A stretch of DNA of 64,000 bases from Candidatus Nanoarchaeia archaeon (GCA_041651575.1 JBAZJB010000001.1:639286-703285); one strand, 5' to 3'. Numbered from the stretch's first letter, positions 11,144 through 28,662 are shown. A program made the numbers and translations. The notes: generated by a model from the sequence alone, not told the origin.

Positions 11144-11452
11144 ATGAAAACGTTATTGGAACTAAAGAAAGAACTGCAAGATCTCCAAAACAAACATAAA
11201 GATATATCTGATAGAATAGAAACACAAAATAAGATTGATAAATTAAAGGAACAAATTATATTATTAGAATTAAAAAAGATTAAACCTGCAAAAAAAGTTA
11301 ATAATCCTGTTTTGAAGGTTATTAAAACTATTTTTATAGGATTTGGTAAAACAGGAAAGTATATTTGGAATAATGGTTTGAAAGGAATGTTTGAACATTT
11401 AGGAAGAGCAGGGATTAAAATGCACAATCTTGATAATAAAAAAAAGAAATAA
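11144..11452 (+). CDS. small coiled-coil hypothetical protein
   Basis: ATG at 11144 directly follows the cdc48 stop. Charged heptad-like N-terminal half. Confidence 0.35.
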   Translation: MKTLLELKKELQDLQNKHKDISDRIETQNKIDKLKEQIILLELKKIKPAKKVNNPVLKVIKTIFIGFGKTGKYIWNNGLKGMFEHLGRAGIKMHNLDNKKKK

Positions 11453-11453
11453 A

Positions 11454-12101
11454 ATGAGCTTTAAACTATCCCCCAGTTCGTTATCTTTAATGGAAGATTG
11501 TCCTAGATGTTTTTGGCTTACACAACATAAAGTCTGGTCAAGACCTGCATCTATATTTCCTTCTTTACCTTCTGGAATGGATTCTATTTTAAAGAAACAT
11601 TTTGATAAATTTATGGAAAAAGGAGAATTACCTCCTGAATTGAATAAATCTGAGTGTAAAGGTAGTTGTAGCTTGTTTAATGATCAGGAAAAACTAAGTA
11701 TTTGGAGAAGCAATTTTAAAGGCATTTCTTTTACTGATAAAGAGGGAAATATATTACATGGGGCTATTGATAATATACTTGTTAAAGGAAAGAAATTGAT
11801 TGTTTTGGATTATAAGACTAGAGGATTTCCATTAAAAGAAGATACTCATGAACATTATCAGAATCAACTGGATATTTATAATTTTTTACTTAGAAAAAAT
11901 GGATATGAAACAGAAGATTATGGTTTTTTATTGTTTTATCATCCTAAAGAAGTTTTAGAAAATGGGGATGTTGTTTTTAATACTGATCTTAAGAAGATGA
12001 AAATTGATGTTGATAACGCTAAGAAAATATTTATTAAGGCTATTGAGTTGCTAAATAAGGATTGTCCTACTAAACATTGTGTTTGGTGCGAGGGGAAATA
12101 A
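11454..12101 (+). CDS. Cas4-like PD-(D/E)XK nuclease with cysteine cluster (stand-alone, no CRISPR nearby)
   Basis: N-terminal CPRCFWL. GAIDNILV...VLDYKT gives D...(D/E)xK. QLDIYNFLL is QxxxY-like. C-terminal CPTKHCVWC. ATG at 11454. Confidence 0.7.
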   Translation: MSFKLSPSSLSLMEDCPRCFWLTQHKVWSRPASIFPSLPSGMDSILKKHFDKFMEKGELPPELNKSECKGSCSLFNDQEKLSIWRSNFKGISFTDKEGNILHGAIDNILVKGKKLIVLDYKTRGFPLKEDTHEHYQNQLDIYNFLLRKNGYETEDYGFLLFYHPKEVLENGDVVFNTDLKKMKIDVDNAKKIFIKAIELLNKDCPTKHCVWCEGK

Positions 12102-12102
12102 G

Positions 12103-15100
12103 ATGGAAAATTTGTTTTTAACAGATCAGGATGTTATAAAGATTTTTAAAGAACATTTAAAAATAGAAAGCAGGGTTATTCCAATAGAAGAATTATTTAA
12201 GATTAGAAATAAAAATAAAATAGATTTTAAACCTTATTACCAGAGAAATTATGTTTGGAATAATGAAAAAGCATCATATTTTATCGAAAGTTTATTAATT
12301 GGAACAGAAATTCCCCCACTCATTTTTTTCCATGGAAACAATAATAATATTGAGATTATTGATGGTAGGCAAAGATTTGAAACAATATATAATTTTTTAG
12401 AAGATAAATTAACATTAAATGAAAAGGGTTTAATTATACTTAAAAGTTTAGATAAAATAAAGTATTCTAAATTGGCCCCAGAATTATTAACTAGATTTTT
12501 AGAATCTAAGATTAGGGTAATTGATTTTAAATTAATTAATGAACCTAAATTGGATATAAAAAAAGAAGATTTAATTAAAAAAGAAATTTTCAGAAGGTAT
12601 AATTCAGGAATAACTCCTTTGAGAAGGTCCGATGTAGATAAAGCCGTTTTCATAGACGATCCCATTACTAAAAAGCTAAAAGATAAATTTGTTGCAGATA
12701 AAGATTTTTATTTAAAAAATGTAGTGCTATTTTATCCCAAAAAAAGGGATTATAATAGTAAATCTACATTAGAAGAATTAATTTCTAAGATTAGATTATT
12801 ACTCGTTCTTCATTTAATACCTACTAAATATTATTCTACATTAAAAAATAGAAAAGATATAATGAATATGCTTTATAATAAATATTCCGAAGAGCAAGAA
12901 GATTTAACCTCTTTTTTAAATGAATATGAAAAAAAGATATCCTATATTAATAATATTAAAAATAGTTTCAGTACAGATAATTATAACCAATTAATGTCAG
13001 AATGTCTTTTTTGGGTTTTTAATGTTATTGAAAATGAAGGGTACTCATTAAAAGACATTTTAGATGTACCTTTTATAGAAAGTATATCTAAGAGTTTAGA
13101 AAATAATTGTGATATTTATAGTGAAAAAAATTCACATTTTTTTAAAGAATTTAATCAAAGATATAGATTTACTTTAGAGATATTTGAAAAAAAATTAATG
13201 AAAGATTTTAAAATTTATTTAGACTTATATAATGCTAAAGAAGTGAGGGATAACATTGACTTATCCAAAACTGATGAAAAGGCAGGAATTTTAGAAAATT
13301 CATTTATTACAAAACCTGCTCCAATGGATATGACCATAGAATCTATAATTATTAAGATGGAAAGGAATAATTTTAAGGTTAGGCCTATCTATCAAAGAAG
13401 CGAAGTTATGAACATAAGCAAAGCTTCCTCTTTAATTGAAAGTATTTTATTGGATATAAAATTACCTCCTATATTTATTTATAAAAATAAAAATTCTGTT
13501 TCGGAAGTAGTTGATGGACAACAAAGAATTTTAGCTATTTTAGGTTTTATTGGAAAAAGTTATAAAGATGAAAATGGAAATATAGTTAAATCTAATAAAA
13601 ATGATTTTAAATTAAAAAATTTAACCATTTTAAAAGAATTAAATGGTCTTAAATTTAGTCAACTAGAAGAAAAATATCAAAATAGGATATTAGATTTTAA
13701 TTTATTCATTGTTGAAATTGATTCTTCAATTAATGAAAACTTTAATCCAATAGATTTATTTATAAGACTTAATTCTAAACCTTACCCTATTAAAGAAAAT
13801 ACTTTTGAAATGTGGAATTCATATGTGGATATAGAGATAATTAAAAAAATAAAGGAAAATACTAAAAAAATAGAAAATTGGTTTTATATTAAAAAACCCG
13901 AAAGTGATAAAAGGATGGAAAATGAAGAGTTGTATACCACCTTAGTTTATATAAATTATATGCAAGAGTATCAATCTGAGAAATTTTCTAAGATAGTTGA
14001 TATTCATAAAAGGGATGATAGAATTAATTGTAGGATTTCTGATAAAAAGGATATTTCAAAGGTATTAAATTATTCTTCTATAGATGAAAATGAAAAAGAA
14101 AAATTTATTGCTTCTATAAAAAATATTGAAGCAATTATGTTAAAAATCAAGACTTTATTAATAAGATCAAATATAGAAGAAGGAAAATTAGATAATTATC
14201 TAGAAAGTGAATTGGATAAATTATTCTATTTAAAAGCTAGGAGAAGATTACAAAATTTTTATCTTTTATACCCATTGATTAAAAGTATTAATTTAGAAAG
14301 AGTTAGAGAAAAAAGAGAAGAACTTTTTAATGATATTCTTGAGACTTATAAAAGAACCTCGAACCTTAAAGAAAATGAGGATGAGGAAGTTTATTTTGAA
14401 AAAATATCTTTATTGGATGATAAATGGACGCGTGACAAAAGGAAAATAATATTAACTTTAGAAGAAAAGAAACAAATATTATTAAATCAAAAAAATTTCT
14501 GTCCACTTTGTAATTCAGTTCTTTTCCATGGGGAAGATATCGAAGTAGACCATATAATTCCCATTTCCATGGGGGGAAAAGATAAAATAGAGAATTTACA
14601 AATTACTCATAAGGATTGTAACAGGAAAAAAGGAACTAAAAACATTAAAAAATATTTATATGAACCCATTAATTTAGAGGATATTGAAGTATACTTATCT
14701 AAGCACGAAAATGAAAATTTAGAATTTAAATCTACTTTATCCTGGAATATTAAAGGTAAATTAAGAGATACTGAAATTGAAAATTCGGTATTAAAAACTA
14801 TAGCTGCTTTTAATAACTTTGATGGGGGGGTATTACTAATAGGAATTGATGATAATAAGAATATATTGGGATTAGATTATGATTTTAAGGAAGGAAATTT
14901 AAAAGATGTAGACAAATTTGAGAATCATTTAAGGAATATTATCAAAGAAAGATTAATAGCAGAACAATGGTATATATCAAAAAACTTCAAAATTTCTTTT
15001 GAAAACATTGAAAATAAAATAGTTTGTATAATTAAAATTGATAAGGGCACAAAACCAATATATACTAAAGATAACAAATTTTTCATAAGAAACGGAAATA

Positions 15101-15162
15101 GAACTATTCAGTTAGAACTCAGCGAAATTGTACAATATGTAAAAAATAATTTTGAAGAGTGA
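12103..15162 (+). CDS. 1019-aa multidomain protein: DUF262 (ParB-like) x2 + HNH nuclease + AlbA_2/Schlafen-type domain
   Basis: Module 1: YYQRNYVWNNEKASYFIESLL...IIDGRQRFETI. Module 2, from about codon 425: IYQRSEVMNISKASSLIESILL...VVDGQQRILAI. HNH: CPLCNS...EVDHIIPISMGGKDKIENLQITHKDCNRKKG. C-terminus: NLEFKSTL...IAAFNNFDGGVLLIGIDDNKNILGLD. ATG at 12103 lies 1 nt after the Cas4-like stop. Confidence 0.8.
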   Translation: MENLFLTDQDVIKIFKEHLKIESRVIPIEELFKIRNKNKIDFKPYYQRNYVWNNEKASYFIESLLIGTEIPPLIFFHGNNNNIEIIDGRQRFETIYNFLEDKLTLNEKGLIILKSLDKIKYSKLAPELLTRFLESKIRVIDFKLINEPKLDIKKEDLIKKEIFRRYNSGITPLRRSDVDKAVFIDDPITKKLKDKFVADKDFYLKNVVLFYPKKRDYNSKSTLEELISKIRLLLVLHLIPTKYYSTLKNRKDIMNMLYNKYSEEQEDLTSFLNEYEKKISYINNIKNSFSTDNYNQLMSECLFWVFNVIENEGYSLKDILDVPFIESISKSLENNCDIYSEKNSHFFKEFNQRYRFTLEIFEKKLMKDFKIYLDLYNAKEVRDNIDLSKTDEKAGILENSFITKPAPMDMTIESIIIKMERNNFKVRPIYQRSEVMNISKASSLIESILLDIKLPPIFIYKNKNSVSEVVDGQQRILAILGFIGKSYKDENGNIVKSNKNDFKLKNLTILKELNGLKFSQLEEKYQNRILDFNLFIVEIDSSINENFNPIDLFIRLNSKPYPIKENTFEMWNSYVDIEIIKKIKENTKKIENWFYIKKPESDKRMENEELYTTLVYINYMQEYQSEKFSKIVDIHKRDDRINCRISDKKDISKVLNYSSIDENEKEKFIASIKNIEAIMLKIKTLLIRSNIEEGKLDNYLESELDKLFYLKARRRLQNFYLLYPLIKSINLERVREKREELFNDILETYKRTSNLKENEDEEVYFEKISLLDDKWTRDKRKIILTLEEKKQILLNQKNFCPLCNSVLFHGEDIEVDHIIPISMGGKDKIENLQITHKDCNRKKGTKNIKKYLYEPINLEDIEVYLSKHENENLEFKSTLSWNIKGKLRDTEIENSVLKTIAAFNNFDGGVLLIGIDDNKNILGLDYDFKEGNLKDVDKFENHLRNIIKERLIAEQWYISKNFKISFENIENKIVCIIKIDKGTKPIYTKDNKFFIRNGNRTIQLELSEIVQYVKNNFEE

Positions 15163-15503: not shown

Positions 15504-17276
15504 ATGAGTATGATATCTAACAAGAAGGATTGGTTAGAGAAAAGATATTACCTTTTATTAGAAGAATTTAAAGATAGAGAATTTGATAGAGAAGAAGTAA
15601 TAAAGGTTTTAACTGAAAAAAGCCATGACTATAAAGACAGTGTACCTGTAATACTGACAGAATTAAAAAATGAGGGTTATCTTAATGTTAGATTAGACCC
15701 AAAAGATTCTAGAAAAAGGCTTTATACTTTAAAATCAAACAATGAAATAATAAAAGAAAAATTAAATTTAAATAAAGAAGTCTTAACAAGACAAGATATT
15801 GATAGAATATTAAAAAAAGCAGCCGATTTAATTAGAACAAGGGTGGATTATAAATTTATACTTATATTACTTTTTTTAAAAAGAATTTCTGATAAATGGG
15901 AAGAAGAATTTGAACATGTATTAAAAGATATAGAAAAAGAGGGTTTATCTGGAGATGCAGCAATTAATGAAGCTAAACGTACAGAATATCATAAATTTGA
16001 TTTACCTGAAGAATACTTATGGGATAATTTAAGGAAAGAGGTTGAAAAACTTCCTGAAAAATTTTCTGAAGCATTGAAAAATATTGCTGAAAGAAATCCC
16101 GAATTGCGAGATGCTTTAGAAAATACTGATTTTATTCAATTTACATCAAATAATGAAAATGCTGAATTATTAAGACAGCTTGTTGAATTATTTTCAGAAA
16201 AGAAATTACATCATGTATCTCCCGATATATTAGGGGATGCCTATGAATGGATTTTGAGATATTTTGCACCAGATAAAGCCAAAGAAGGAGAGGTATATAC
16301 TCCCAGAGAAGTTATTCAACTTATTGTTGAAATCTTAAAACCTTTGGCAAAGGAAAGTGTTTATGATCCGACCTGCGGAAGTTCTGGAATGTTGATTTCT
16401 TCATATAAGTATGTTGAAGAAAAACAAGGAAAAGAAGGAGCAAGAAAATTATTTTTATTTGGACAAGAGTATAATCCTAAGACTTTGGCTTTAGGAAGAA
16501 TGAATATGTATATTCATGATATTAGAGACTTTAATCTACAAGGTGGTGATACTTTGATATATCCAAGATTAAAGCAAGGTGATGAACTACAAAAATTTAA
16601 CATTGTAATCGCAAATCCCCCCTGGAATCAAGATGGTTATGATGAATCAAGACTAAAGCAAGGAGAATTTTGGAAAACCCGTTTTAAATACGGTTTTGTT
16701 CCAGGACAATCAGCAGACTGGGCATGGATTCAGCATATGTTAGCTTCTTCTAAAGATGATACTGGGAGAATTGGGGTTGTCATGGATAATGGTTGTTTAT
16801 TCAGAAGTGGAAAAGAAAAAGCGATTAGGCAAAGAGTAATTGAAGAAGATTTAATAGAAGCAGTCCTTCTTTTGCCAGAAAAATTATTCTATAACACGGG
16901 AGCTCCTGGAGCAATCATTATTTTAAGGAAAAATAAACCTAAAGAAAGAAAAGGGAAGATTCTTTTCATCAATGCTTCAAATGAATATGAAAAACATCCT
17001 GATGTTAGAAAGCTGAATACTCTTACAAAAGAGAATATGAAGAACATAGTTCATGCCTATGACAAGTTTGAATATAAGGAAGGATTCTCAAGGGTGGTTG
17101 ATAAAAAAGAGCTTAAAGAAAATGATTTTAACTTGAATGTTTCATTATATATATATCCAGAAGAGGAACATGAAAATATTGATGTTCATAAAGAATGGTC
17201 TGAACTGAAAACATTAGAAAAAGAGAGAGGCGAATTAGACAAGAAGATTGAATTATTCTTGAAGGAGATAAAGTAA
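15504..17276 (+). CDS. hsdM: type I restriction-modification methyltransferase subunit HsdM with extra N-terminal winged-helix domain
   Basis: Motif I VYDPTCGSSGML. Motif IV IANPPWNQ (NPPW, N6-adenine). HsdM_N-like LFLKRISDKWEEE. The first ~95 aa look wHTH-like (LTELKNEGYLNVRLDPKDSRKRLYTL). Confidence 0.92.
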   Translation: MSMISNKKDWLEKRYYLLLEEFKDREFDREEVIKVLTEKSHDYKDSVPVILTELKNEGYLNVRLDPKDSRKRLYTLKSNNEIIKEKLNLNKEVLTRQDIDRILKKAADLIRTRVDYKFILILLFLKRISDKWEEEFEHVLKDIEKEGLSGDAAINEAKRTEYHKFDLPEEYLWDNLRKEVEKLPEKFSEALKNIAERNPELRDALENTDFIQFTSNNENAELLRQLVELFSEKKLHHVSPDILGDAYEWILRYFAPDKAKEGEVYTPREVIQLIVEILKPLAKESVYDPTCGSSGMLISSYKYVEEKQGKEGARKLFLFGQEYNPKTLALGRMNMYIHDIRDFNLQGGDTLIYPRLKQGDELQKFNIVIANPPWNQDGYDESRLKQGEFWKTRFKYGFVPGQSADWAWIQHMLASSKDDTGRIGVVMDNGCLFRSGKEKAIRQRVIEEDLIEAVLLLPEKLFYNTGAPGAIIILRKNKPKERKGKILFINASNEYEKHPDVRKLNTLTKENMKNIVHAYDKFEYKEGFSRVVDKKELKENDFNLNVSLYIYPEEEHENIDVHKEWSELKTLEKERGELDKKIELFLKEIK

Positions 17277-17277
17277 G

Positions 17278-17577
17278 ATGGAAGTAAAACGAGCTTTCCA
17301 AATTTTAGTTTATGGTATAGTCTTAATTGCCCTAATTGGAACTCTTATTGGGCTTTCCACCAAGGTAGTAGATAATATTATTAATCTATTTATTTCAGCA
17401 GGTTTGGGTTTAGTTTTTGCTGCAATTTCTGGAAAAGTTATTGAATTATTCTCAGATGATACTCTGAAAGAAATATTTTGGACAGTTGAATTTGAACTGT
17501 GGGGCTATGAGATTGAAATACCAATTTCCTTGTTTACTATATTCACAATAATAATTAGATTATGGTGGTTTGGATAA
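17278..17577 (+). CDS. 99-aa three-TM membrane protein embedded in the hsd operon
   Basis: Hydrophobic segments ILVYGIVLIALIGTLIGL, LFISAGLGLVFAAISG and ISLFTIFTIIIRLWWF. Starts 1 nt after the hsdM stop. Confidence 0.55.
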   Translation: MEVKRAFQILVYGIVLIALIGTLIGLSTKVVDNIINLFISAGLGLVFAAISGKVIELFSDDTLKEIFWTVEFELWGYEIEIPISLFTIFTIIIRLWWFG

Positions 17578-17578
17578 A

Positions 17579-18577
17579 ATGGCTAAAAACAAAAACAGAA
17601 AAACTTTAAGAAAACCATTATTGAACCCCGAGTATTATAAGGAATTAGAATCTGATGAAATTTATTCAGATAATACAAGATTGGGAAAAGTTTTTGGAGC
17701 AAAAAATAAGTTAAATAATCAAAAGTTTATTAGGGCAATTTCCGAGTCAAAAAGACCTTATGGATGGAGAAAAAACTATGGGTTTGATTTATTTGATTCA
17801 TTACATTTAGACAAGCTTATAAATTCCTTGAAAAAAATTGCAAGAAAATTTGGATGGAAATTTAAAGATGTTGAAGAAGACTTTTCAAAGCTAAAAGAGG
17901 GTATAAGGCAACAACAAGAAATAATCTCAAATTTAAGTAAAGCAAATAAGGATGCAAAAGTTAATTATGAAATATTACTTAAAAAATATAAGGAACAGGA
18001 AGAAAAGGAGATTATAAGCAGGGCTAGCGAATTTAATACAGCAATAGAAAATTTAAGAAGCAAAATCCTGGAAGTAGAAAGTAGGCGTATAGCAGAAAGC
18101 GAACTACAAGAATTTTTATATAAAAACAGTTGGATGTTGGGAACAGAATATATTAGCTCAGAGCCTCAAAAGATGAGGGGTGCAAGGAGTAGATTTGATT
18201 TTTATCTGGAAAGATTTAACAAAACTAATGATGTTGTTGAAATTAAATTATTATCTGACAAGATAATAAATCAAGATGAGAGCATAAGTGCAAAAGTAAT
18301 TCAAGCAGTAGATCAATTAATTGACTATTTAGAAAAAACAATTAGCGTTGCACATAGTACAACGGAATCTGAAGAAGAAGGAATAAAAGAATTAAGACCG
18401 AGAGGAATTTTGATAATAGGAAAGGACAATTCTTTAGAAGCGAAAAAAAAGTTAAATAAATGGAATTATCAATTTGTCCATATTCATATTTATACTTACC
18501 AAGATATTTTAGAAAAAGCAGAAGCATTAATGAAACATATTGAAAAGAGAAAACATAAAAATGAAACAACAAACTAA
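17579..18577 (+). CDS. Shedu-like (DUF4263) PD-(D/E)xK nuclease-domain protein with coiled-coil N-terminal half
   Basis: C-terminal half reads ESELQEFLYKNSWMLGTEY...SRFDFYL...DVVEIKLL...AVDQLIDYLEK...PRGILIIGK...IHIYTYQDILEKAE. This follows the DUF4263/SduA nuclease pattern (D...ExK, Q..Y, viG, tYd.ll). ATG at 17579. Confidence 0.65.
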   Translation: MAKNKNRKTLRKPLLNPEYYKELESDEIYSDNTRLGKVFGAKNKLNNQKFIRAISESKRPYGWRKNYGFDLFDSLHLDKLINSLKKIARKFGWKFKDVEEDFSKLKEGIRQQQEIISNLSKANKDAKVNYEILLKKYKEQEEKEIISRASEFNTAIENLRSKILEVESRRIAESELQEFLYKNSWMLGTEYISSEPQKMRGARSRFDFYLERFNKTNDVVEIKLLSDKIINQDESISAKVIQAVDQLIDYLEKTISVAHSTTESEEEGIKELRPRGILIIGKDNSLEAKKKLNKWNYQFVHIHIYTYQDILEKAEALMKHIEKRKHKNETTN

Positions 18578-19757
18578 AATCCCTGAAAATTGGAAATTGA
18601 AAGAAATAAAAGAAATCTTTAGTGTTGAGACCGGAACAACGCCCCCAACCAAAGAAAAGATTTACTGGGAAAATGCTACAATAAACTGGGCAACTCCTGC
18701 TGATCTTGGAAAACTAAATGGAAATATACATTTTCAAGAGAGTGAAAGGAAGATTTCTAAAACTGCATTGAATGACATAAATTTAACATTGATGCCCAAG
18801 AATACTATTATTGTTTCGACAAGAGCCCCAGTGGGATATGCAGTTGTCATAAAAAAAGAGAGTACATTTAACCAGGGATGCAAGGGTCTCATTCCTAAAA
18901 AAGAAAATGATGCTGATCCATATTTCTATTGTTATTATTTAATAAATAAAAAGTATGAATTACAAAATCGAGCTGGGCAAAGCACATTTAAGGAGCTGTC
19001 TAAAGATATGTTTGAAAGTTTTGAGGTATTACATCCTCCATTTGAAGAACAAAAAGCAATTTCTAAGATTTTTTCAGAAGTTGATTTAGAATTAGATAGT
19101 ATAGAGAGAGAGAGACAAGCAACAGAGCGACTCAAGAGGGGTATTATGGTAAGGTTGCTCGAAGGGAAAAAATGGAAGGTTGTTAAATTGGGAGAGATAG
19201 TAGAATTTGCGAAGGGCAAAAAACCCCAACTAATGATTGATGAACAAAAAGAAGATTATCTGCCTTATTTGTCTACGGACTATTTAAGAGAAAACTTAGG
19301 AACTAAATATGTTTCCCCTTCAGAAGATGTGGTCTTAGTTAAAAATGGAGAAATAATACTATTGTGGGACGGCTCAAATGCCGGAGAATTTTTTGAAGGA
19401 AAAGAAGGAGTTTTATCAACCACAATGGTTAAATTTGATCTTAAAACGGACATTCATCAAAAATATCTTTTATATCTGTTAAAGTCTAAACAATTTTATC
19501 TACAAGGACAAACAAATGGAACAGGGATACCTCATGTTGATAGAAAAGTTTTGATGAATTTAGATATTTCTTTGCCTCTAATTGAAGAACAAAAACATAT
19601 CGCTGAAATATTAAACACCCTAGATCAAAAACTTGAGCTTGAACTAAAAAGAAAAGATAAACTTGAAAGAATCAAGAAAGGTTTAATGAATGATCTCCTA
19701 GCTGGAAATAAAAGAGTCAATATTGAAAAGGTCTTGAAAATTGGGGGCGGAAAATGA
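18561..19757 (+). CDS. hsdS: type I R-M specificity subunit HsdS (two target-recognition domains)
   Basis: IPENWKLKEIKEIFSVETGTTPP and WKVVKLGEIVEFAKGKKP start two TRDs. Conserved helical spacers are EEQKAISKIFSEVD and EEQKHIAEILNTLD. Confidence 0.85.
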   Translation: MKQQTKIPENWKLKEIKEIFSVETGTTPPTKEKIYWENATINWATPADLGKLNGNIHFQESERKISKTALNDINLTLMPKNTIIVSTRAPVGYAVVIKKESTFNQGCKGLIPKKENDADPYFYCYYLINKKYELQNRAGQSTFKELSKDMFESFEVLHPPFEEQKAISKIFSEVDLELDSIERERQATERLKRGIMVRLLEGKKWKVVKLGEIVEFAKGKKPQLMIDEQKEDYLPYLSTDYLRENLGTKYVSPSEDVVLVKNGEIILLWDGSNAGEFFEGKEGVLSTTMVKFDLKTDIHQKYLLYLLKSKQFYLQGQTNGTGIPHVDRKVLMNLDISLPLIEEQKHIAEILNTLDQKLELELKRKDKLERIKKGLMNDLLAGNKRVNIEKVLKIGGGK

Positions 19758-20494
19758 CTTTTGATGATGAAACAAAACAGAGAATCTTTCAACAGGCTAT
19801 TGATATTTTTGTAATCCCTGAAATAGAAAGGAGAAAAAAGATAAATAAATTACCTTCAGATTTTAAATTAGATAAAATCCAAATTATATTTTCTTCCAAG
19901 AGTGGAAGAAATTATGTAAGACTAAATAAGGAAGTTGATGTAATTATTAAATGCAAGGTAAATAAGCCTATCAAAAAAGGGGATATAGTTTATGAGAACG
20001 ATATAGATCAAATTGAGTCAGTTGAACTAACAAAAGGAGATTTAAATTATGGGCATATTACTTTATTAGCTTTTAAGGGGAATTGGATAGTTTCATTTAA
20101 TTTTATTTATAATAAAGAAGAAATTAAGAAGCATATTGAAGCATCTAAAGAGTTCTATGAAAGTGCAAAAGATAATTTAGAAAAGAAAAGATTAAGACCT
20201 TTTTTTGAGAATGCTTTTGCTTGTGCTGAATTATTTACTAAAAGTGTATTATTATCTTTGCCAAATAAAAAGTTCTTTGAAGGAAAAGACCATCGAAAAA
20301 AAAAGGAGTTTCTTAAAAATTGGGCAAATTTAGGAAATGTTAAAATTGAGTTTAGCACGACCTTGTCTAAACTATACTCTCTGAGAAGTTCAGCGAGGTA
20401 TCTTTCTTCTGATAACTACAAAAAAGAAAATGCTAAAGGAATACTTTCAATATTAGATGAGATGATTAAATCTTCGGAGGACCTAACAAAATGA
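19754..20494 (+). CDS. protein with C-terminal classical HEPN-like domain, embedded between hsdS and hsdR
   Basis: AFACAELFTKSVLL...GKDHRKKKEFL...LSKLYSLRSSARYLSSD follows the HEPN helical pattern (KavLl..H..l...L..lR..a.Y). The N-terminal ~120 aa are unassigned. ATGA overlaps on both sides. Confidence 0.45.
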   Translation: MTFDDETKQRIFQQAIDIFVIPEIERRKKINKLPSDFKLDKIQIIFSSKSGRNYVRLNKEVDVIIKCKVNKPIKKGDIVYENDIDQIESVELTKGDLNYGHITLLAFKGNWIVSFNFIYNKEEIKKHIEASKEFYESAKDNLEKKRLRPFFENAFACAELFTKSVLLSLPNKKFFEGKDHRKKKEFLKNWANLGNVKIEFSTTLSKLYSLRSSARYLSSDNYKKENAKGILSILDEMIKSSEDLTK

Positions 20495-23400
20495 CACAAC
20501 AAAATGAAAAGAAACTGGTAGAGAATTATATGATTGATAAGTTTGTTAATCAGAATAAATGGACTTACATTCCTGGAGGCAAACTTGAAAGAGAAAGCAA
20601 TGAAGAGCCTCTTTTAATTAAGAATCTTGTTTCTGCTATAAAGAAGATAAATGATACTAATTTATCTGAAGAAGATATTCAAGAAGTTTTGAAACAACTT
20701 AGATTAAGAGGCGTTGGGGTTGATGATTCTAAAAAGATTTTAGGATTCTTTAAGTTTGGAGTTTCAGTAAAACTCTCTAAGACTAAAGAGCTTGTTAGAG
20801 TCAAGTTATTTGATTATGATCATGTTGATAACAACGAGTTTATTGTAACTAATCAAATTCATTATGAATCTTCAGCTGGGGAAATTATTCCAGACATTGT
20901 TTTGTATGTTAATGGTATACCTTTAGTTATAATCGAATGTAAAGATATGACTTCTTCGTCTACAAGTTGGAAAGATGCTTATAATGATATTGTTGGAATT
21001 TATAGAAATAAGGTTAGAGAACCCTTCAAGTATTTTCAAATTGGAGTTGCAGCAGAACAAAAAGTAAAATATTTTCCAATAGTTTCGTGGGCTGAGGATA
21101 TTAAAGTTTGTGAGTGGAGAGATGAAAATAGAATAGAATTAGGAACAGATAGTTCTATGACTGGAATATTTGAGATGCTAACTAAAGAAGGCTTATTAAA
21201 TCTTATTAGAGATTTCATTTTTGTAAGAGAAGAGGGGGGAGAGAAAACAAAAGTAATTACAAGATATATGCAATATAGGGCAGTTAATAAAATCGTGGAT
21301 AGGGTTAAAACCAACATAGAAGGAAAAGAAAAAAAGAACAAAGGTTTAGTTTGGCATTGGCAAGGATCAGGAAAAACATTGACAATGGCTTTTGCAGCGC
21401 ACAAATTGTATTATCTTAAAGAATTAGAAAATCCAACCCTCTTTTTTATTTTAGATAGAACCGAACTTGAAGAACAGATGTATAATGAATTAAATGCTTT
21501 AGAGATGCCAAAAGTAGAGTCTATAGGATCAATTCAAGAATTAAAAAGAATATTAGAATATGATGAAGGAAAAGGTAAAAGAGGATTATTTACAATACTT
21601 ATCCATAAGTTTAGACCTGGAGACTTTGAAGATTTAAGAAAAGAATTAGAAAATAAGGATGTAGATAAACAAACCTTTTTGACAAGAAAAAATGTTATCG
21701 CTTTTATTGATGAAAGTCATAGATCTCAATATGGTCTACTTGCTTCTCAGATGAAAGCACTTTTAAAAAATGCTTTCTTTTTTGCATTTACTGGAACACC
21801 AATAAACAAAAAAGATAATAAAAATACATATCTTGAATTTGCTTATCCCCCCACCGAATTATATCTTGATAAATATTTTATTAAAGATGCCATTAGTGAT
21901 GGATTTACTTTAAAAATAGCTTATCAACCAAGACTTGAAAAAGAAGTTCATCTAAAAACAGACCAACTTACAATTTTGTTAGAAGCTGAAGATGTAGAAC
22001 TACCAGATGAAAAAAGAAAAGAATTTCAAGAAAGAGTAAAGAAAAATATTACAATACAAAAAGCTTATTATAAAAATAGGGAAAGAATAAAGAGGATTAG
22101 CGAAGATATAACAAAACACTTCAAAGAAAATCTCGATGGAAGATTTAAAGCGATGATAGTTGCAGTTGATAGAGAAGCTTGCGTTCATTATAAAGAAGAA
22201 TTAGACAAATTATTGCCGGGATATTCAGAAATTGTAATGACTTTTACCTCTGATGAGAGATCTAAAGATATTCAAGAATATCTGAATAAACTTCATGAAA
22301 GATTCCCAAATAAAGAACTTTCTGAAATAATGAAAGAAATTACTGGAAAATTCAAAGAAGAAGAGAATCCAAAAATACTAATTGTTACAGATATGTTACT
22401 TACTGGTTTTGATGCTCCTATTTTGCAAACAATGTATTTAGATAAACCCCTAAGAGAACATAGGTTATTACAAGCAATAGCAAGAACTAATCGTCCATTT
22501 AAAAATGTTAAAGAAGCAGGTTTAATTGTAGATTATTTAGGAATATTAAAAGAATTTAAGAAAGCTTTTGAAATTTATACAAAAGAGGATATCAAAGGAG
22601 CTCTTTATGATCTGAATGAAATTAAGAAAGAGTTTGAAGATTTACTTAAAGAAACTTTAGATTTATTTAAAGATTATCCTGAAAGAAAATTGGATAGCAG
22701 GGTATATTTATTGGAAATAGTGAGAAGTTTATTAGCTGATTCTCTTAAATTAAGGAAATTTATAGATAATATTAAAGAGTTAAGAAAAAAGTTTGAACTT
22801 CTTGGATCAGATGAATCCAAAGTAATTTATTATAAAGAATTGATTTGGCTTGAGGCAATATATGAAACCTATAAAAAAGAAGTATATCAAGAGACAGAAG
22901 ATGAAACTGATACTTATTTAAGAAAATATTTTGCTAAAACAATTAGATTTATTCACAAAAGCACAGAAATTGAGAATCTTAAAGAAAACTTACCTGTTAT
23001 AGATTTTGATGAGAATTATATTAAAAAATTAGAAGAAAAATATAAAACTAAAGAAGAAAGAGCCGCAAACATTGTATTTACATTAAATAGGTATATACTT
23101 GTGGATAGAGATGACAAAAAACTTTATGAAACTTTAATTGATAAAGTACAAAGATTATTTGATTCTTGGAGAACTAAAACAAAAGATTTTGAAACAATTT
23201 ATAAGGAAGGAATAAAAATCATTCAAGAAAGAAATAAACTTCTTCAAAGGAAGAAAGATCTTAAATTAAGTAATTTTGAATTTTCATCATTAATCCTTTT
23301 AGAAAAAAAGATAGGGGAAGAAAAAGTTCTTATAGAAGATATTAAAGAATTAGCAAAAGAGCTTTTCAGTGAGAAATATATATTCACAAATTGGACATCT

Positions 23401-23547
23401 CAAATTTTTACTAAAAAAGAAATTCAAAAAGTAATAAGGAAGTTATTACTAGGTTATATTAAAAAATATAATCTATCTATAGAAGATGTTAATGAGCTAA
23501 GCTTAAAAATATTTGAAAACTTGAAACAATATGAAAAAAGAGGTTAA
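20491..23547 (+). CDS. hsdR: type I restriction enzyme subunit HsdR
   Basis: N-terminal nuclease IPDIVLYVNGIPLVIIECK. Helicase motif I WHWQGSGKTLTMAF, motif II FIDESHRSQ, and QAIARTNRP. 1018 aa. Confidence 0.92.
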   Translation: MTQQNEKKLVENYMIDKFVNQNKWTYIPGGKLERESNEEPLLIKNLVSAIKKINDTNLSEEDIQEVLKQLRLRGVGVDDSKKILGFFKFGVSVKLSKTKELVRVKLFDYDHVDNNEFIVTNQIHYESSAGEIIPDIVLYVNGIPLVIIECKDMTSSSTSWKDAYNDIVGIYRNKVREPFKYFQIGVAAEQKVKYFPIVSWAEDIKVCEWRDENRIELGTDSSMTGIFEMLTKEGLLNLIRDFIFVREEGGEKTKVITRYMQYRAVNKIVDRVKTNIEGKEKKNKGLVWHWQGSGKTLTMAFAAHKLYYLKELENPTLFFILDRTELEEQMYNELNALEMPKVESIGSIQELKRILEYDEGKGKRGLFTILIHKFRPGDFEDLRKELENKDVDKQTFLTRKNVIAFIDESHRSQYGLLASQMKALLKNAFFFAFTGTPINKKDNKNTYLEFAYPPTELYLDKYFIKDAISDGFTLKIAYQPRLEKEVHLKTDQLTILLEAEDVELPDEKRKEFQERVKKNITIQKAYYKNRERIKRISEDITKHFKENLDGRFKAMIVAVDREACVHYKEELDKLLPGYSEIVMTFTSDERSKDIQEYLNKLHERFPNKELSEIMKEITGKFKEEENPKILIVTDMLLTGFDAPILQTMYLDKPLREHRLLQAIARTNRPFKNVKEAGLIVDYLGILKEFKKAFEIYTKEDIKGALYDLNEIKKEFEDLLKETLDLFKDYPERKLDSRVYLLEIVRSLLADSLKLRKFIDNIKELRKKFELLGSDESKVIYYKELIWLEAIYETYKKEVYQETEDETDTYLRKYFAKTIRFIHKSTEIENLKENLPVIDFDENYIKKLEEKYKTKEERAANIVFTLNRYILVDRDDKKLYETLIDKVQRLFDSWRTKTKDFETIYKEGIKIIQERNKLLQRKKDLKLSNFEFSSLILLEKKIGEEKVLIEDIKELAKELFSEKYIFTNWTSQIFTKKEIQKVIRKLLLGYIKKYNLSIEDVNELSLKIFENLKQYEKRG

Positions 23548-24106
23548 AATATTTAATTCAAGCATACAATATTGTATAGATTATCGTAGTGTGAAATATC
23601 CTAGATTAGAATTTAGAACAGGAATGTTAAATATCATACTTCCCTATGATTATGAAAATGAGCATAATCTATTAAATATACATAAAAATTGGATAATAAA
23701 AAAACAGAGAGCTATTAATTTTGCATTAAATAAATCAAAGGACAAACAATTAATAAATAGAAATTTAAATAACTTAAAAAAGATTGTTTTAGATTATTAT
23801 AACAAAAATTCCAATAATTTTAAAGCTAAAAAAATACAATTTAGACATATGAAATCAAAATGGGGGAGTTGTAGTTCAGATAAAGTTTTGACCTTTAATT
23901 CACTTTTAAGATTTTTACCTCTAAATCTTATTCAATATGTTGTTTATCATGAAATGTTACATCTCAAAGAAAAAAAACACAATAAAACCTTTTGGAATAT
24001 CATTTCTAAAAAGTTTACGAATTATCCATTAAAAGAAAAAGATTTATTTATATATTGGTTTTTAATACAAAAAAATTATAATTTAAATTTTTCTTTAAAA
24101 CTATAA
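23531..24106 (+). CDS. DUF45/YgjP-type zinc metallopeptidase-fold protein
   Basis: VVYHEMLHLKEKKHNKTFW (HExxH...H) and the N-terminal Y.l.rs.r pattern (CIDYRSVKYPRLEF). 17-nt overlap with the hsdR end. Confidence 0.72.
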   Translation: MKKEVKIFNSSIQYCIDYRSVKYPRLEFRTGMLNIILPYDYENEHNLLNIHKNWIIKKQRAINFALNKSKDKQLINRNLNNLKKIVLDYYNKNSNNFKAKKIQFRHMKSKWGSCSSDKVLTFNSLLRFLPLNLIQYVVYHEMLHLKEKKHNKTFWNIISKKFTNYPLKEKDLFIYWFLIQKNYNLNFSLKL

Positions 24107-24750
24107 TAATTATCCTTTCCCAAAATAATATGATCTAATAAAGGTATATTTAAAATTTCTCCTACTTCTTTTATTTTAACTGTAGTAAATATGTCTCCTT
24201 CACTAGGATTACAATCTCCAGAAGGATGATTATGGACTAAAATAATAGATTTAGCACTTTCTCTAATAGCTTCCTTAAAAATTTCTCTTGGATGTGCTAA
24301 AGAACTATCCAAAGTACCAATACTAACAACAGTTCTTTTAATAATCTTATTTTTAACATCTAAATACAAACAAATAAAATATTCTTTTTTCTCATTTCCA
24401 TATTCATCAACTAATAAATCATAAACATCCTTAGCACAACTAATACTATTTTTAAAACCTTCACGTTTTAATTTATTATATCTTTTAAAAAGTTCAATTA
24501 AGCTTAAAACCTTTAAAACTTTAACTTTATCACCTTTAAACTCTCTTAAAAGTTCATTAAAACCAAGATCTTCAAGTTTATTCAAGTTATATTTCTTTAA
24601 TAGTCTATTACTCATCTCTAAAGCACTTTCTCTATAACTTCCTTCCCAAAAGAGAATAGATAATAACTCTGCTTCATCTAAATTTTTAGCTCCTTTTCTA
24701 ATTAATTTAGAATCGGGTCTATTAAACGAAGGAAGATCAAAGATTCTCAT
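24076..24750 (-). CDS. radC: RadC-like JAB/MPN domain protein
   Basis: ILVHNHPSGDCNPSEGD (JAMM-like HxHPSG) and an N-terminal HhH-like region AELLSILF. Converges on the DUF45 gene with a 31-nt overlap. Confidence 0.85.
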   Translation of the reverse strand: MRIFDLPSFNRPDSKLIRKGAKNLDEAELLSILFWEGSYRESALEMSNRLLKKYNLNKLEDLGFNELLREFKGDKVKVLKVLSLIELFKRYNKLKREGFKNSISCAKDVYDLLVDEYGNEKKEYFICLYLDVKNKIIKRTVVSIGTLDSSLAHPREIFKEAIRESAKSIILVHNHPSGDCNPSEGDIFTTVKIKEVGEILNIPLLDHIILGKDNYYSFKEKFKL

Positions 24751-25497: not shown

Positions 25498-25680
25498 TTA
25501 ATTAAAACTATTCAAATTATACTTAAAAACCAACCTATTAGCCAATTCCAAAGCACTTTCCTGCATAGAACCTCTTCCAAAAATAATAGCTAATAATTCA
25601 GCACTATCCAAAGAACTTGCTCCATTTTTCTCTAATTTATAGCCAGGACGATTAAACCAAGGTAATTCTTTAATGTGCAT
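25498..25680 (-). pseudogene. 5' fragment of a second radC paralogue (60 codons, no JAB domain)
   Basis: MHIKELPWFNRPGYKLEKNGASSLDSAELLAIIF... aligns to the RadC N-terminus MRIFDLPSFNRPDSKLIRKGAKNLDEAELLSILF. The ORF runs into repeat R2a and stops. Confidence 0.6.
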
Positions 25681-25906: not shown

Positions 25907-26371
25907 ATGGTATATACAGAAATTAAAAATAGAAATGGAAATCAGTACTTTTACAGAGTATTATCTATAAGAAATAAAGATAAAATTTCTAAAAAAAGAA
26001 TATATCTAGGTAAAAATCTAAACAAAGAAGAATTATTAACAAAAGAGTTACAAATTAACCAAGAATTTAATTTAATAAAGAAAGATATTACTATAGAAAA
26101 ATTAAAACCAAAAATAATAAAAATATTAAAAAAATATAAGGTAGTAAAAGCAGGAATCTTTGGTAGTTATGCTAGGGGAGAACAAAAAAGAAATAGCGAT
26201 ATTGATATAGCTGTTAAAATACAAGATAAAAAAATGAGTTTGATTGGTTTTGTCAATTTAAAATTAAAATTAGAAGGAGTTATTAAAAAGAAAGTAGATT
26301 TAGTAGAATATTCTGCTATTAAACCTTTAATAAAAGATAATATTTTAAAAGAGGAGGTTAGAATACTATGA
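25907..26371 (+). CDS. mntA: MNT-type nucleotidyltransferase (antitoxin-like) with ~55-aa N-terminal extension
   Basis: GIFGSYARGEQKRNSDIDIAV is the minimal NTase signature. The N-terminal extension is homologous to the N-terminus of the Fic ORF. Confidence 0.8.
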   Translation: MVYTEIKNRNGNQYFYRVLSIRNKDKISKKRIYLGKNLNKEELLTKELQINQEFNLIKKDITIEKLKPKIIKILKKYKVVKAGIFGSYARGEQKRNSDIDIAVKIQDKKMSLIGFVNLKLKLEGVIKKKVDLVEYSAIKPLIKDNILKEEVRIL

Positions 26372-27738: not shown

Positions 27739-28662
27739 ATGTTCATAGAAAAAAGAAAAGATGGAAAGAAAGTAAAATATTATCTTGTTTATTCTTATAG
27801 ACAAAAATCTCAAGTTAATAAAATTAGAAAGTATTTGGGGTTTAACCTTTCACATGAAGAATTACAAAAGAAAAAAGCTGTGGAAGAAAAACAGATAGAA
27901 AAAGAATTAGAAAAATTAAATACAAAAGTATTCAACTTTTCCTTATCAAAAAAACAATTAAGACAACTAAACGAATATGATAAACAAATAAAGATTCATC
28001 ATTTGAATTACAAACAATGGGAGAAATTTACAGAAGAATTTACTTATAACACAAATGCAATAGAAGGATCTTTAGTTTCCTTAAATGAAGTTCCTGAAAT
28101 TTTGTATAAACCAAAAGCAGAAGATAGTGAAGAAATTGAAACCAAAGGTGTGGCAAAGGCAGTAGAATTTATAAGAACCACTAAAGAAGATTTATCCTTA
28201 GAATTATTAAAAAAATTACATAAATTATGCTTTGAAGGATCAAAATCTTTTGCTGGAGAATTTAGAAATGTAGAAGTAGTTATTCAAAATGGAAGAGGAG
28301 AAATAATTCATGCAGGAGTTCCTGTTAAAAAACTTAAAAATGCCTTAAATGATTTAGTTAGTTGGTATAAACAAAATAAAAATAAATTTAAACCTCTTGT
28401 TTTGGCAGCAATAATTCATAATCAATTTGAACATATACACCCCTTCCAAGATGGGAATGGTAGAGTTGGAAGATTGTTGTTAAATTTTATATTATTAAAA
28501 AACAAATATCCTCCAATAAATATCTCTTTTGAAGATAGAAGGGAATATTACCTTACTTTAGAACAATATTCAAAACATAGAAGTTTAAGAGAAACAATGT
28601 CTTTTTTAATTAAACAATACAATAAAACTTTAAAACAGGTGTCCACAAAACCTAAAAAATAA
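27739..28662 (+). CDS. fic: Fic-domain protein with ~40-aa N-terminal extension
   Basis: HPFQDGNGRVGRLL matches the Fic motif HxFx(D/E)GNGRxxR. Confidence 0.9.
   Translation: MFIEKRKDGKKVKYYLVYSYRQKSQVNKIRKYLGFNLSHEELQKKKAVEEKQIEKELEKLNTKVFNFSLSKKQLRQLNEYDKQIKIHHLNYKQWEKFTEEFTYNTNAIEGSLVSLNEVPEILYKPKAEDSEEIETKGVAKAVEFIRTTKEDLSLELLKKLHKLCFEGSKSFAGEFRNVEVVIQNGRGEIIHAGVPVKKLKNALNDLVSWYKQNKNKFKPLVLAAIIHNQFEHIHPFQDGNGRVGRLLLNFILLKNKYPPINISFEDRREYYLTLEQYSKHRSLRETMSFLIKQYNKTLKQVSTKPKK

What the first reader, a model, noticed from the sequence alone, without database searches (positions are those of the whole stretch)
17278..18577. Shedu-type (DUF4263) nuclease paired with a dedicated 3-TM mini-protein
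The C-terminal half of the 332-aa ORF follows the SduA/DUF4263 PD-(D/E)xK pattern: ELQEFLYKNSWMLGTEY, RFDFYL, VVEIK, QLIDY, GILIIGK, IYTYQDIL. The N-terminal half is a basic, coiled-coil region with no obvious sensor domain. Immediately upstream, 1 nt apart, is a 99-aa protein with three hydrophobic helices. Described Shedu systems are single-gene with variable N-terminal sensor domains. A separate membrane partner inside an R-M operon would be a new configuration, for example membrane tethering or envelope sensing.
Basis: partly seen in the sequence, partly recalled or inferred. Interest (0 to 1): 0.62.

Follow-up and report, generated by a model that had tools for sequence, protein, structure and literature searches.

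The report
Shedu nuclease inside type I R-M operon
A genuine Shedu anti-phage nuclease sits inside an archaeal type I restriction-modification operon, but the small membrane protein in front of it is not its dedicated partner: that protein belongs to an undescribed family that travels with type I R-M operons whatever gene follows it.

Summary
Both ORFs are real. The 332-aa ORF (17579-18577) is a bona fide Shedu/DUF4263 nuclease: Pfam SduA_C above threshold, all four PD-(D/E)xK motifs invariant, and B. cereus Shedu as best fold match. The 99-aa ORF (17278-17577) is a real three-helix membrane protein under strong purifying selection (dN/dS 0.05-0.2).

The proposed dedicated pairing is not supported.
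- Of 13 distinct loci carrying a close TM99 homologue, only the window has Shedu after it. The next gene is otherwise an unrelated protein, or hsdS itself.
- Of 5 distinct loci carrying this Shedu subfamily, only the window has TM99.
- On one R-M backbone, three of the four combinations occur: TM99+Shedu, TM99 alone, Shedu alone.

What is constant is the type I R-M operon. TM99 always heads the variable slot upstream of hsdS (9 of 9 informative loci). Shedu embedded in R-M systems is already published (602 cases), and two-component Shedu exists.

So this is an ordinary Shedu used as cargo in a type I R-M operon of a DPANN-like archaeon. The residual novelty is TM99: a rare, tightly conserved family with no match in four family libraries and no known function, specifically linked to type I R-M operons.

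The parts
15504..17276 (+). hsdM, type I R-M methyltransferase subunit (590 aa). First gene of the operon.
   Evidence: Pfam N6_Mtase E=8e-107 and HsdM_N E=1e-15. NCBIfam hsdM TIGR00497 E=4e-57, which is below the curated cut-off.
17278..17577 (+). TM99: 99-aa membrane protein with three hydrophobic helices and an acidic, aromatic-rich loop (residues 55-82, net charge -7). It is an undescribed family and heads the variable slot upstream of hsdS.
   Evidence: No match in Pfam, NCBIfam, PADLOC or PHROGs. No fold match.
17579..18577 (+). Shedu (SduA) nuclease, 332 aa. N-terminal beta4-alpha domain at residues 20-91, helical linker at 99-167, DUF4263 PD-(D/E)xK domain at 173-331. Catalytic residues are E173, D207, E221, K223 and Q246.
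18561..19757 (+). hsdS, specificity subunit with two target-recognition domains. The likely start is ATG 18561 (MKQQTK...), as in homologues; the mechanical ORF starts at TTG 18540. It overlaps the end of Shedu.
   Evidence: Pfam Methylase_S E=2e-60, two stretches. N-termini of hsdS in related loci.
19754..20494 (+). HEPN-domain protein (246 aa). Cargo in the second slot, between hsdS and hsdR.
   Evidence: Pfam HEPN E=2.4e-7, 31 bits against a cut-off of 22.
20491..23547 (+). hsdR, restriction/translocase subunit (1018 aa).
   Evidence: NCBIfam hsdR TIGR00348, 663 bits against a cut-off of 285. Pfam HSDR_N, SWI2_SNF2 and T1R_D3-like.
23531..24106 (+). YgjP-like metallopeptidase (191 aa). Last gene of the operon; conserved after hsdR in the related locus L024.
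   Evidence: Pfam YgjP-like E=4e-25. 49% identical protein in the same position in L024.

Best explanation
The region is one co-directional operon in the chromosome of a low-GC, DPANN-like archaeon: hsdM - TM99 - Shedu - hsdS - HEPN - hsdR - YgjP peptidase. It is a type I restriction-modification system whose two internal gaps (M-to-S and S-to-R) serve as slots for exchangeable defence cargo.

Shedu is one such cargo. It is a self-sufficient DUF4263 PD-(D/E)xK nuclease with a complete active site. By analogy with solved Shedu enzymes, it probably forms a tetramer whose N-terminal domains sense free or unusual DNA ends and license nicking or cleavage. I infer, but have not shown, that it complements the R-M system: type I cleavage of unmethylated invader DNA creates exactly the linear ends that Shedu acts on.

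TM99 is not a Shedu subunit. It is an optional but strongly conserved small membrane protein belonging to the R-M operon backbone. It always sits at the head of the slot before hsdS, whatever follows. My committed guess for its role, at low confidence, is a membrane-embedded oligomer whose acidic loop contacts the R-M complex or incoming DNA at the membrane. That would place or control restriction where foreign DNA enters.

Shown here: gene identities, active-site conservation, purifying selection, and independence of TM99 and Shedu. Inferred: Shedu/R-M synergy and any TM99 mechanism.
For: Shedu identity:
- Pfam SduA_C at 51 bits against a cut-off of 27; nine PADLOC SduA models, best E=4e-20.
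- E173, D207, E221, K223 and Q246 are invariant in 37 homologues. They align with motifs I-IV of B. cereus Shedu 8ti9 (motif definition in Gu et al.).
- The AF2 model (pLDDT 86) has 8ti9 and 8ti8 as its best fold matches, E=2.6e-5, probability 1.00.

TM99 is a real gene:
- 32 invariant columns in 16 sequences.
- dN/dS 0.05-0.2 with dS above 1 in most pairs.

Independence of TM99 and Shedu:
- The gene directly after TM99 differs between loci: Shedu (window); an unrelated 215-aa protein (L001); 193 aa (L005); 223 aa (L008); 290 aa (L018); 193 aa (L012); and hsdS itself (L011, L020). Five of these are mutually unrelated by BLASTP.
- Shedu homologues at 80%, 78%, 52% and 50% identity (L021, L023, L024, L030) have no TM99, also by family HMM.
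- On one R-M backbone: the window has TM99+Shedu; L018 (hsdM 76% identical) has TM99 without Shedu; L024 (hsdM 62%, hsdR 52%) has Shedu plus CBASS without TM99.

TM99 is linked to the R-M operon:
- All 9 close-family loci with enough flank have hsdS downstream on the same strand within 0-4 genes.
- This holds across at least three hsdM types, at 23-76% identity, while TM99 stays 55-85% identical.
- TM99 subclades track operon architecture (plus the contexts).

Literature: Shedu within R-M systems and proposed complementation; DNA-end sensing; defence genes embedded in a type I R-M operon, TgvAB.
Against: - Nothing here tests any activity.
- Contexts come from 13 TM99 loci and 5 Shedu loci, many on short metagenomic contigs. 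The nearest relatives, TM99 at 86% (P0003) and Shedu at 83% (P0018), lie on 3-kb contigs I could not inspect. A sister genome may repeat the pair.
- TM99 as R-M backbone is weakened in several ways. R-M operons of the same backbone work without it in their gene set (L024). One lineage keeps TM99 beside an orphan hsdS that is split in one population (L001-L003). Two of three remote relatives sit outside R-M, next to a TIR protein or an integrase.
- TM99 is far better conserved than any R-M subunit. That is hard to reconcile with a specific protein-protein contact with those subunits.
- The AF2 model of TM99 is weak (pLDDT 66).
Confidence: 0.8

Rival explanations
1. TM99 is a dedicated partner of this Shedu, tethering the nuclease to the membrane or sensing envelope damage, and so forms a new two-gene Shedu system.
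For: The genes are 1 nt apart, on the same strand, and probably translationally coupled. Two-component Shedu systems exist (KELShedu).
Against: - The pairing is seen in 1 of 13 TM99 loci and 1 of 5 Shedu loci.
- Shedu homologues at 78-80% identity function in their loci without TM99.
- TM99 at 80-85% identity precedes unrelated genes.
- Tight spacing holds for whatever gene follows TM99 and is general in these compact genomes.
- Shedu has no hydrophobic segment or special N-terminus compared with its TM99-less homologues.
Confidence: 0.04
2. TM99 is a generic membrane sensor or adaptor that pairs with whichever effector is encoded directly downstream: Shedu, TIR, HEPN-like, OLD-like and others. 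That would be a conserved sensor with swappable effectors.
For: - TM99 or a remote relative is always immediately upstream of a variable gene, and some of these look like effectors. Examples are Shedu (window), a TIR_2 protein (L027), a weak OLD-TOPRIM hit (L028) and a possible Rx4H motif in the L008 223-aa protein (by eye).
- Spacing to the next gene ranges from a 4-nt overlap to a 3-nt gap in the close family.
Against: - In L011 and L020 the next gene is hsdS, with no effector in the slot.
- The downstream proteins share no common domain, motif or membrane segment that could serve as a docking site.
- The same effector, Shedu, works in other loci without it.
Confidence: 0.12
3. TM99 is a stand-alone membrane-level defence or exclusion gene, for example superinfection-exclusion-like or an abortive-infection pore. 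It merely co-localises with R-M in defence islands.
For: - Very strong conservation independent of all neighbours suggests a self-contained function such as homo-oligomerisation.
- Remote relatives lie in other defence or mobile contexts: AbiTii and an integrase in L026, TIR and a resolvase in L027.
- It persists beside a decaying hsdS (L003).
Against: - The close family is never found outside a type I R-M or hsdS cluster, and always at the same position: first in the slot before hsdS, 9 of 9.
- Shedu behaves differently. It occupies either slot or lies outside R-M.
- TM99 has no relatives in phage, plasmid or viral-contig collections, where exclusion genes are common.
Confidence: 0.25

Closest known systems
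Shedu (SduA, DUF4263) anti-phage nuclease: B. cereus Shedu (PDB 8ti8/8ti9) and E. coli SduA (8ps4)
   Same: - C-terminal DUF4263 PD-(D/E)xK domain with motifs I-IV (E, D, ExK, Q).
- An N-terminal regulatory domain joined by a helical linker.
- Best structural match.
- Located in a defence island or R-M context, as for 602 published cases.
   Different: - Only about 16-17% identical to the solved enzymes.
- It belongs to a subfamily of 81 clusters, seemingly confined to uncultured DPANN archaea and CPR bacteria. Gu et al. had only 11 DPANN examples.
- The class of its N-terminal beta4-alpha domain was not resolved here.
Defence genes embedded in type I R-M operons: TgvAB in V. cholerae VPI-2 (bioRxiv 10.1101/2024.04.04.588119). 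From my own knowledge, also PrrC in the EcoprrI hsd locus and the 'rlo' genes of Campylobacter hsd loci.
   Same: Unrelated defence genes are inserted between hsd genes and co-transcribed, giving layered defence. The window and its relatives carry Shedu, HEPN, NYN and CBASS genes in these slots.
   Different: The cargo differs: a DNA-end nuclease rather than a GmrSD-like or anticodon nuclease. None of the described cases has a conserved small membrane protein heading the slot.
KELShedu two-component Shedu (PMC12577705)
   Same: A DUF4263 nuclease encoded directly after a second gene.
   Different: KELA is a soluble dsDNA-binding protein that complexes with KELB. TM99 is a membrane protein that does not co-occur with Shedu homologues. 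Sequence similarity between TM99 and KELA was not tested.
Small-membrane-protein components of defence systems, recalled from memory as leads only: Kiwa KwaA, the Rst Hydrolase-3TM system, retron 2TM effectors, CBASS Cap15
   Same: A short multi-helix membrane protein encoded in a defence operon.
   Different: TM99 matches none of the 5027 PADLOC models, nor Pfam, NCBIfam or PHROGs. It has no fixed partner gene.

Membership tests
Shedu / SduA (DUF4263) | SduA_C (PF14082) domain above Pfam's gathering score | tested here: met
   51 bits against a cut-off of 27, E=2.5e-13, covering profile positions 4-158 of 159. PADLOC SduA E=4.4e-20.
Shedu / SduA (DUF4263) | PD-(D/E)xK catalytic motifs I-IV (E; D; ExK; Q) as defined for B. 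cereus Shedu: E204, D249, E264/K266, Q295 | tested here: met
   E173, D207, E221, K223 and Q246 are invariant in 37 homologues. They align to the corresponding positions of 8ti9. Motif definition from Gu et al..
Shedu / SduA (DUF4263) | Nuclease-domain fold like solved Shedu structures | tested here: met
   Foldseek top hits are 8ti9_A (E=2.6e-5) and 8ti8_B (E=1e-4), both probability 1.00. The AF2 model has pLDDT 86.
Shedu / SduA (DUF4263) | N-terminal regulatory domain of a described class, e.g. Type 1A sPC4/Whirly | tested here: inconclusive
   AF2 predicts four strands (20-65) plus a helix (74-91), a topology compatible with a PC4-like fold. However, there is no Pfam hit for residues 1-105 and no PC4/Whirly hit among the top 50 Foldseek matches.
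Shedu / SduA (DUF4263) | Homotetramer; DNA-end-dependent nicking or cleavage; anti-phage protection | not testable with these tools
   Needs biochemistry and phage assays.
   None of 4 other distinct Shedu loci has TM99, also by family HMM. None of 12 other distinct TM99 loci has Shedu.
Type I restriction-modification system | hsdM, hsdS and hsdR genes together in one cluster | tested here: met
   N6_Mtase plus HsdM_N; Methylase_S twice; HSDR_N plus SWI2_SNF2, with TIGR00348 at 663 bits against a cut-off of 285.
Any described protein family, for TM99 | Significant match to a curated profile or a solved fold | tested here: not met
   Pfam's best hit is Flavi_NS2B at 16.7 bits, below its 23.5 cut-off and probably hydrophobic noise. 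PADLOC, NCBIfam and PHROGs give 0 families. Foldseek against the PDB gives no hit with E<5.

The most novel reading that the evidence does not exclude
TM99 and its roughly 67-cluster superfamily of 90-125-aa proteins may be a previously unrecognised membrane component of type I R-M operons in DPANN archaea and CPR bacteria. It would couple restriction, and the defence cargo co-encoded in the slot behind it, to the cell membrane where foreign DNA enters. It could act as an anchor, as a gate through its acidic loop, or as a guard effector released when the R-M complex is inhibited. That would give type I R-M a membrane-bound fourth subunit in these ultra-small cells.
Probability: 0.3. Interest if true: 0.65.

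Novelty: new member of a known kind. Interest (0 to 1): 0.36.

Why it matters
For Shedu, little changes. This is one more example, from a poorly sampled archaeal group, of a known nuclease used as cargo inside a type I R-M operon. It fits the published idea that Shedu complements R-M systems.

Two comparative results are more useful.
- The hsdM-hsdS and hsdS-hsdR gaps of these DPANN/CPR operons are hot slots. They hold Shedu, CBASS, HEPN and NYN genes and many orphan genes. That makes them a cheap place to look for new defence genes in organisms that cannot be cultured.
- A tiny, extremely conserved membrane protein is specifically tied to these operons. If it links restriction to the membrane, it would bear on an old open question: how type I enzymes tell incoming DNA from the resident chromosome.

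Tried and rejected
Searches that found nothing useful:
- Single-sequence phmmer of Shedu against PDB sequences gave no Shedu hit. A 37-sequence profile gave only marginal E-values of about 0.05 to 8ti9 and 8ps4, though with correct motif register. The fold search was decisive instead.
- Foldseek with the TM99 model gave nothing meaningful, as expected at pLDDT 66.
- TM99 and the Shedu subfamily have no relatives in IMG/VR viral contigs. TM99 also has none in GenBank phages or PLSDB plasmids, so a viral or plasmid origin has no support.
- A degenerate-pattern scan with the broad TM alignment failed because no stretch was conserved enough.
- A literature search for membrane localisation of type I enzymes found nothing citable in the held library. 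My memory of reports that EcoKI associates with the membrane is therefore only a lead.

Tests that came back negative:
- BLASTP among the proteins encoded after TM99 found no similarity. Pfam on these and other cargo proteins gave mostly nothing: a weak DUF4145/HEPN_Swt1 hit, one marginal M48 hit, TIR_2, and a weak OLD-TOPRIM hit.
- Laying public metagenome contigs on the locus looked for population variants with other cargo. The locus is contiguous at about 204x in one landfill run and shows no credible structural variant; the listed joints are 20-nt chance matches.

Ideas rejected:
- TM99 as a DNA-level recombination anchor. Synonymous sites are saturated, so conservation is at the protein level.
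- The TM ORF as spurious.

Full report
**Observation.**
The finding's coordinates hold two co-directional ORFs. The first, 17278-17577, encodes 99 aa. The second is 332 aa from ATG 17579 to 18577. They are separated by a single base after the TAA stop. Plausible GGAG and GGTGG ribosome-binding sites lie about 13 nt upstream of each start. Upstream is hsdM (15504-17276). Downstream are hsdS, a HEPN-domain protein, hsdR and a YgjP-like peptidase, all on the + strand and abutting or overlapping.

The window is archaeal chromosome. It carries archaeal-type topoisomerase I, CDC48, family-B polymerase, MCM, Topo VI-B and the RFC large subunit. GC content is 23-31%. It is abundant in a landfill metagenome. 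Relatives of both proteins are annotated in Woesearchaeota, Pacearchaeota and Aenigmatarchaeota bins and in CPR bacteria, so a DPANN-type host is likely.

**The nuclease.**
The 332-aa protein is a member of the Shedu family by every test I could run.
- Pfam SduA_C scores 51 bits against a cut-off of 27, and nine PADLOC SduA models hit, best E=4e-20.
- It has 81 homologous clusters, nearly all carrying PF14082.
- E173, D207, E221, K223 and Q246 are invariant across 37 homologues. In a profile alignment to PDB 8ti9 they fall on motifs I-IV, which Gu et al. define for B. cereus Shedu as E204, D249, E264/K266 and Q295.
- The AF2 model (pLDDT 86) finds the two B. cereus Shedu structures as its only significant fold matches.

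That is only half right. Residues 99-167 are long helices, but residues 20-91 form a conserved four-strand plus helix domain. Its class I could not assign.

**The membrane protein.**
TM99 is a real gene.
- It has 20 clusters in 5.8 billion proteins, all 98-101 aa and 55-100% identical, with 32 invariant columns in the 16-sequence alignment.
- Pairwise dN/dS is 0.05-0.2, while synonymous sites are near saturation. Conservation is therefore at the protein level and old.
- An exhaustive profile search adds a wider family of 67 representatives, all 78-188 aa and mostly 90-125 aa, sharing a G-x-[LI]-[IV]-E-x-F-[ST]-G-D-x-L-K motif and an [FI]-S-I-S-x-F motif.
- The model shows two long helices, a short helix, a hairpin and a C-terminal hydrophobic helix. 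The only polar stretch, residues 55-82, has net charge -7.
- It matches no family in Pfam, NCBIfam, PADLOC or PHROGs, and no solved fold.

**Is TM99 dedicated to Shedu?**
No. I recovered 13 distinct loci with a close TM99. The window is one; the other twelve are the L001 group, the L005 group, L008, L009, L010, L011, L012, L013, L015, L016, the L018 group and L020. The gene directly after TM99 varies.

| Locus | Gene(s) directly after TM99 |
|---|---|
| window | Shedu |
| L001 | 215-aa protein with an N-terminal hydrophobic helix |
| L005 | 193-aa and 266-aa orphans |
| L008 | 223-aa protein |
| L010 | three small proteins |
| L012 | four small proteins |
| L018 | 290-, 227- and 198-aa orphans |
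| L011, L020 | hsdS itself, one base after the TM99 stop |

The proteins I compared (window, L001, L005, L008) are mutually unrelated by BLASTP, and the cargo proteins I scanned mostly lack Pfam domains.

The converse also holds. Shedu homologues sit in four other distinct loci, L021 (80% identity), L023 (78%), L024 (52%) and L030 (50%). None has TM99, even when all ORFs are searched with an HMM of the wider TM family.

The clearest case is a comparison on one R-M backbone.

| Locus | Identity to the window | TM99 | Shedu |
|---|---|---|---|
| window | reference | yes | yes |
| L018 | hsdM 76% | yes | no |
| L024 | hsdM 62%, hsdR 52%, YgjP 49% | no | yes (plus CD-NTase and Cap15) |

**What is constant.**
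All nine close-family TM99 loci with enough downstream sequence have hsdS on the same strand within 0-4 genes. Eight of the nine also have hsdM or hsdR nearby.
- TM99 always comes first in the slot, directly after hsdM, or after hsdR plus a small RHH-like gene. The variable genes lie between it and hsdS.
- The linkage spans different R-M families. hsdM identity to the window is 23-76%, while TM99 identity is 55-85%.
- By eye, the TM99 sequences fall into three subclades that track operon architecture: hsdM-first, hsdR(EcoEI_R_C)-first, and an orphan-hsdS group (with the contexts).

Shedu behaves like ordinary cargo. It appears in the first slot (window, L021, L024), in both slots (L023), or outside any R-M system (L030). 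So TM99 looks like an optional backbone element of these operons, and Shedu like one of many inserts.

Caveats:
- Two of three remote TM relatives are outside R-M. One is next to a TIR_2 protein and a resolvase (L027). One is next to an integrase and near AbiTii (L026). The third is again before hsdS (L028).
- The L001 lineage keeps TM99 beside an hsdS with no hsdM or hsdR in reach, and that hsdS is split in L003.

**Mechanism.**
For Shedu I adopt the published mechanism. The enzyme is a tetrameric PD-(D/E)xK nuclease. Its N-terminal domains recognise free DNA ends and position DNA for nicking (Loeff et al.). Conformational activation is controlled by the N-terminal domain (Gu et al.).

That Shedu acts on the ends produced when the type I enzyme cuts unmethylated DNA is my inference. 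It is consistent with Gu et al.'s suggestion that Shedu complements R-M systems. It also fits TgvAB, a demonstrated case of an independent defence system embedded in a type I operon.

For TM99 there is no direct evidence. I favour an R-M-linked membrane role, about 0.45 of my belief about TM99. A stand-alone exclusion or abortive protein gets about 0.25, a generic adaptor for the downstream effector about 0.12, and a Shedu-specific partner about 0.04.

**Comparison and novelty.**
Shedu within type I, II, III and IV R-M systems is published, with 602 of 5,499 loci. So are two-component and kinase-linked Shedu variants. The Shedu here is a new member of a known kind, from a lineage with few described examples (11 DPANN cases in Gu et al.).

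Two things are, to my knowledge and by the library searches I ran, not described. One is the TM99 family and its strict placement in type I R-M operons. The other is the use of the two intra-operon gaps in DPANN/CPR R-M operons as rich cargo slots.

**Verdict.**

Noticed in passing
window 12079-15162 (+): A 1027-aa protein directly upstream of the R-M operon carries two GmrSD_N (DUF262) regions, an HNH nuclease and a C-terminal Schlafen/AlbA_2 domain. Its best PADLOC hit is NsnA of the Menshen system (E=2.8e-55). It looks like a type IV-restriction-like enzyme with an unusual domain stack.
   Followed up: partly
window 11430-12101 (+): A Cas4-like PD-(D/E)xK nuclease (223 aa; PDDEXK_1 E=1e-9, PADLOC Cas4 E=4e-8) overlaps the start of the GmrSD-like gene. 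No CRISPR array or other cas genes were noticed nearby. Together with the R-M operon, this makes a defence island of about 13 kb between CDC48 and RadC.
   Followed up: no
window 19754-20494 (+): A HEPN-domain protein (246 aa) occupies the second slot, between hsdS and hsdR. Related operons carry other genes there: NYN, a second Shedu, small membrane proteins and orphans.
   Followed up: partly
window 24076-24750 (-) and 25498-25680 (-): A full-length RadC gene converges on the end of the operon. A second, truncated RadC N-terminus (60 aa, 59% identical, UPF0758_N) lies 750 bp further on, with an orphan 164-aa ORF between them. RadC also abuts the R-M operon in L021, L023, L024 and L028, across different R-M families, and lies just upstream of it in L011. 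RadC may mark a conserved insertion hotspot or be part of the module.
   Followed up: partly
L024 7980-9441 (locus coordinates): In a related operon (hsdM 62% identical to the window), the slot after Shedu holds a CBASS pair, a CD-NTase and a Cap15-like effector, before hsdS. That puts three defence systems in one transcription unit.
   Followed up: no
L023 7001-7987 and 10082-11053: An Aenigmatarchaeota operon carries two different SduA_C genes, one in each slot: hsdM-Shedu-274aa-hsdS-Shedu2-hsdR.
   Followed up: no
L005 5832-6011, L008 5829-6011, L016 388-570, L021 6151-7008: A conserved 59-60-aa gene, probably ribbon-helix-helix by eye (...RLYKSEFLFFKKLCDQEGKT...REMIRKE), follows hsdR and overlaps the TM99 start in hsdR-first operons. 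In L021 the same motif forms the N-terminus of a 285-aa protein upstream of Shedu. It may be an operon regulator.
   Followed up: no
L001 4585-5928 and L028 4697-6004: An AlbA_2 + HATPase_c_4 + wHTH protein (435-447 aa) directly precedes TM99 in one close-family locus and one remote-family locus. The window also has an AlbA_2 domain, on the GmrSD-like protein upstream of hsdM.
   Followed up: no
L003 7008-8262: In one population, the hsdS downstream of TM99 is split into 241-aa and 130-aa ORFs, while it is intact (414 aa) in sister contigs L001 and L002. No hsdM or hsdR is within reach. This is either a decaying orphan hsdS or a variant one.
   Followed up: no
L005 9363-10094, L008 8159-8524, L010 11287-12064, L011 9363-10196: The second slot (hsdS to hsdM) of hsdR-first operons repeatedly holds other proteins with hydrophobic helices (121-277 aa, no Pfam). 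These operons seem generally rich in membrane proteins, not just TM99.
   Followed up: no
window 25907-26371 (+) and 27739-28662 (+): Just past the island lie a nucleotidyltransferase (Polbeta/NTP_transf_2, MNT-like, 154 aa) and a Fic/DOC-domain protein (307 aa). A Fic gene also lies upstream of the related operon in L024.
   Followed up: no
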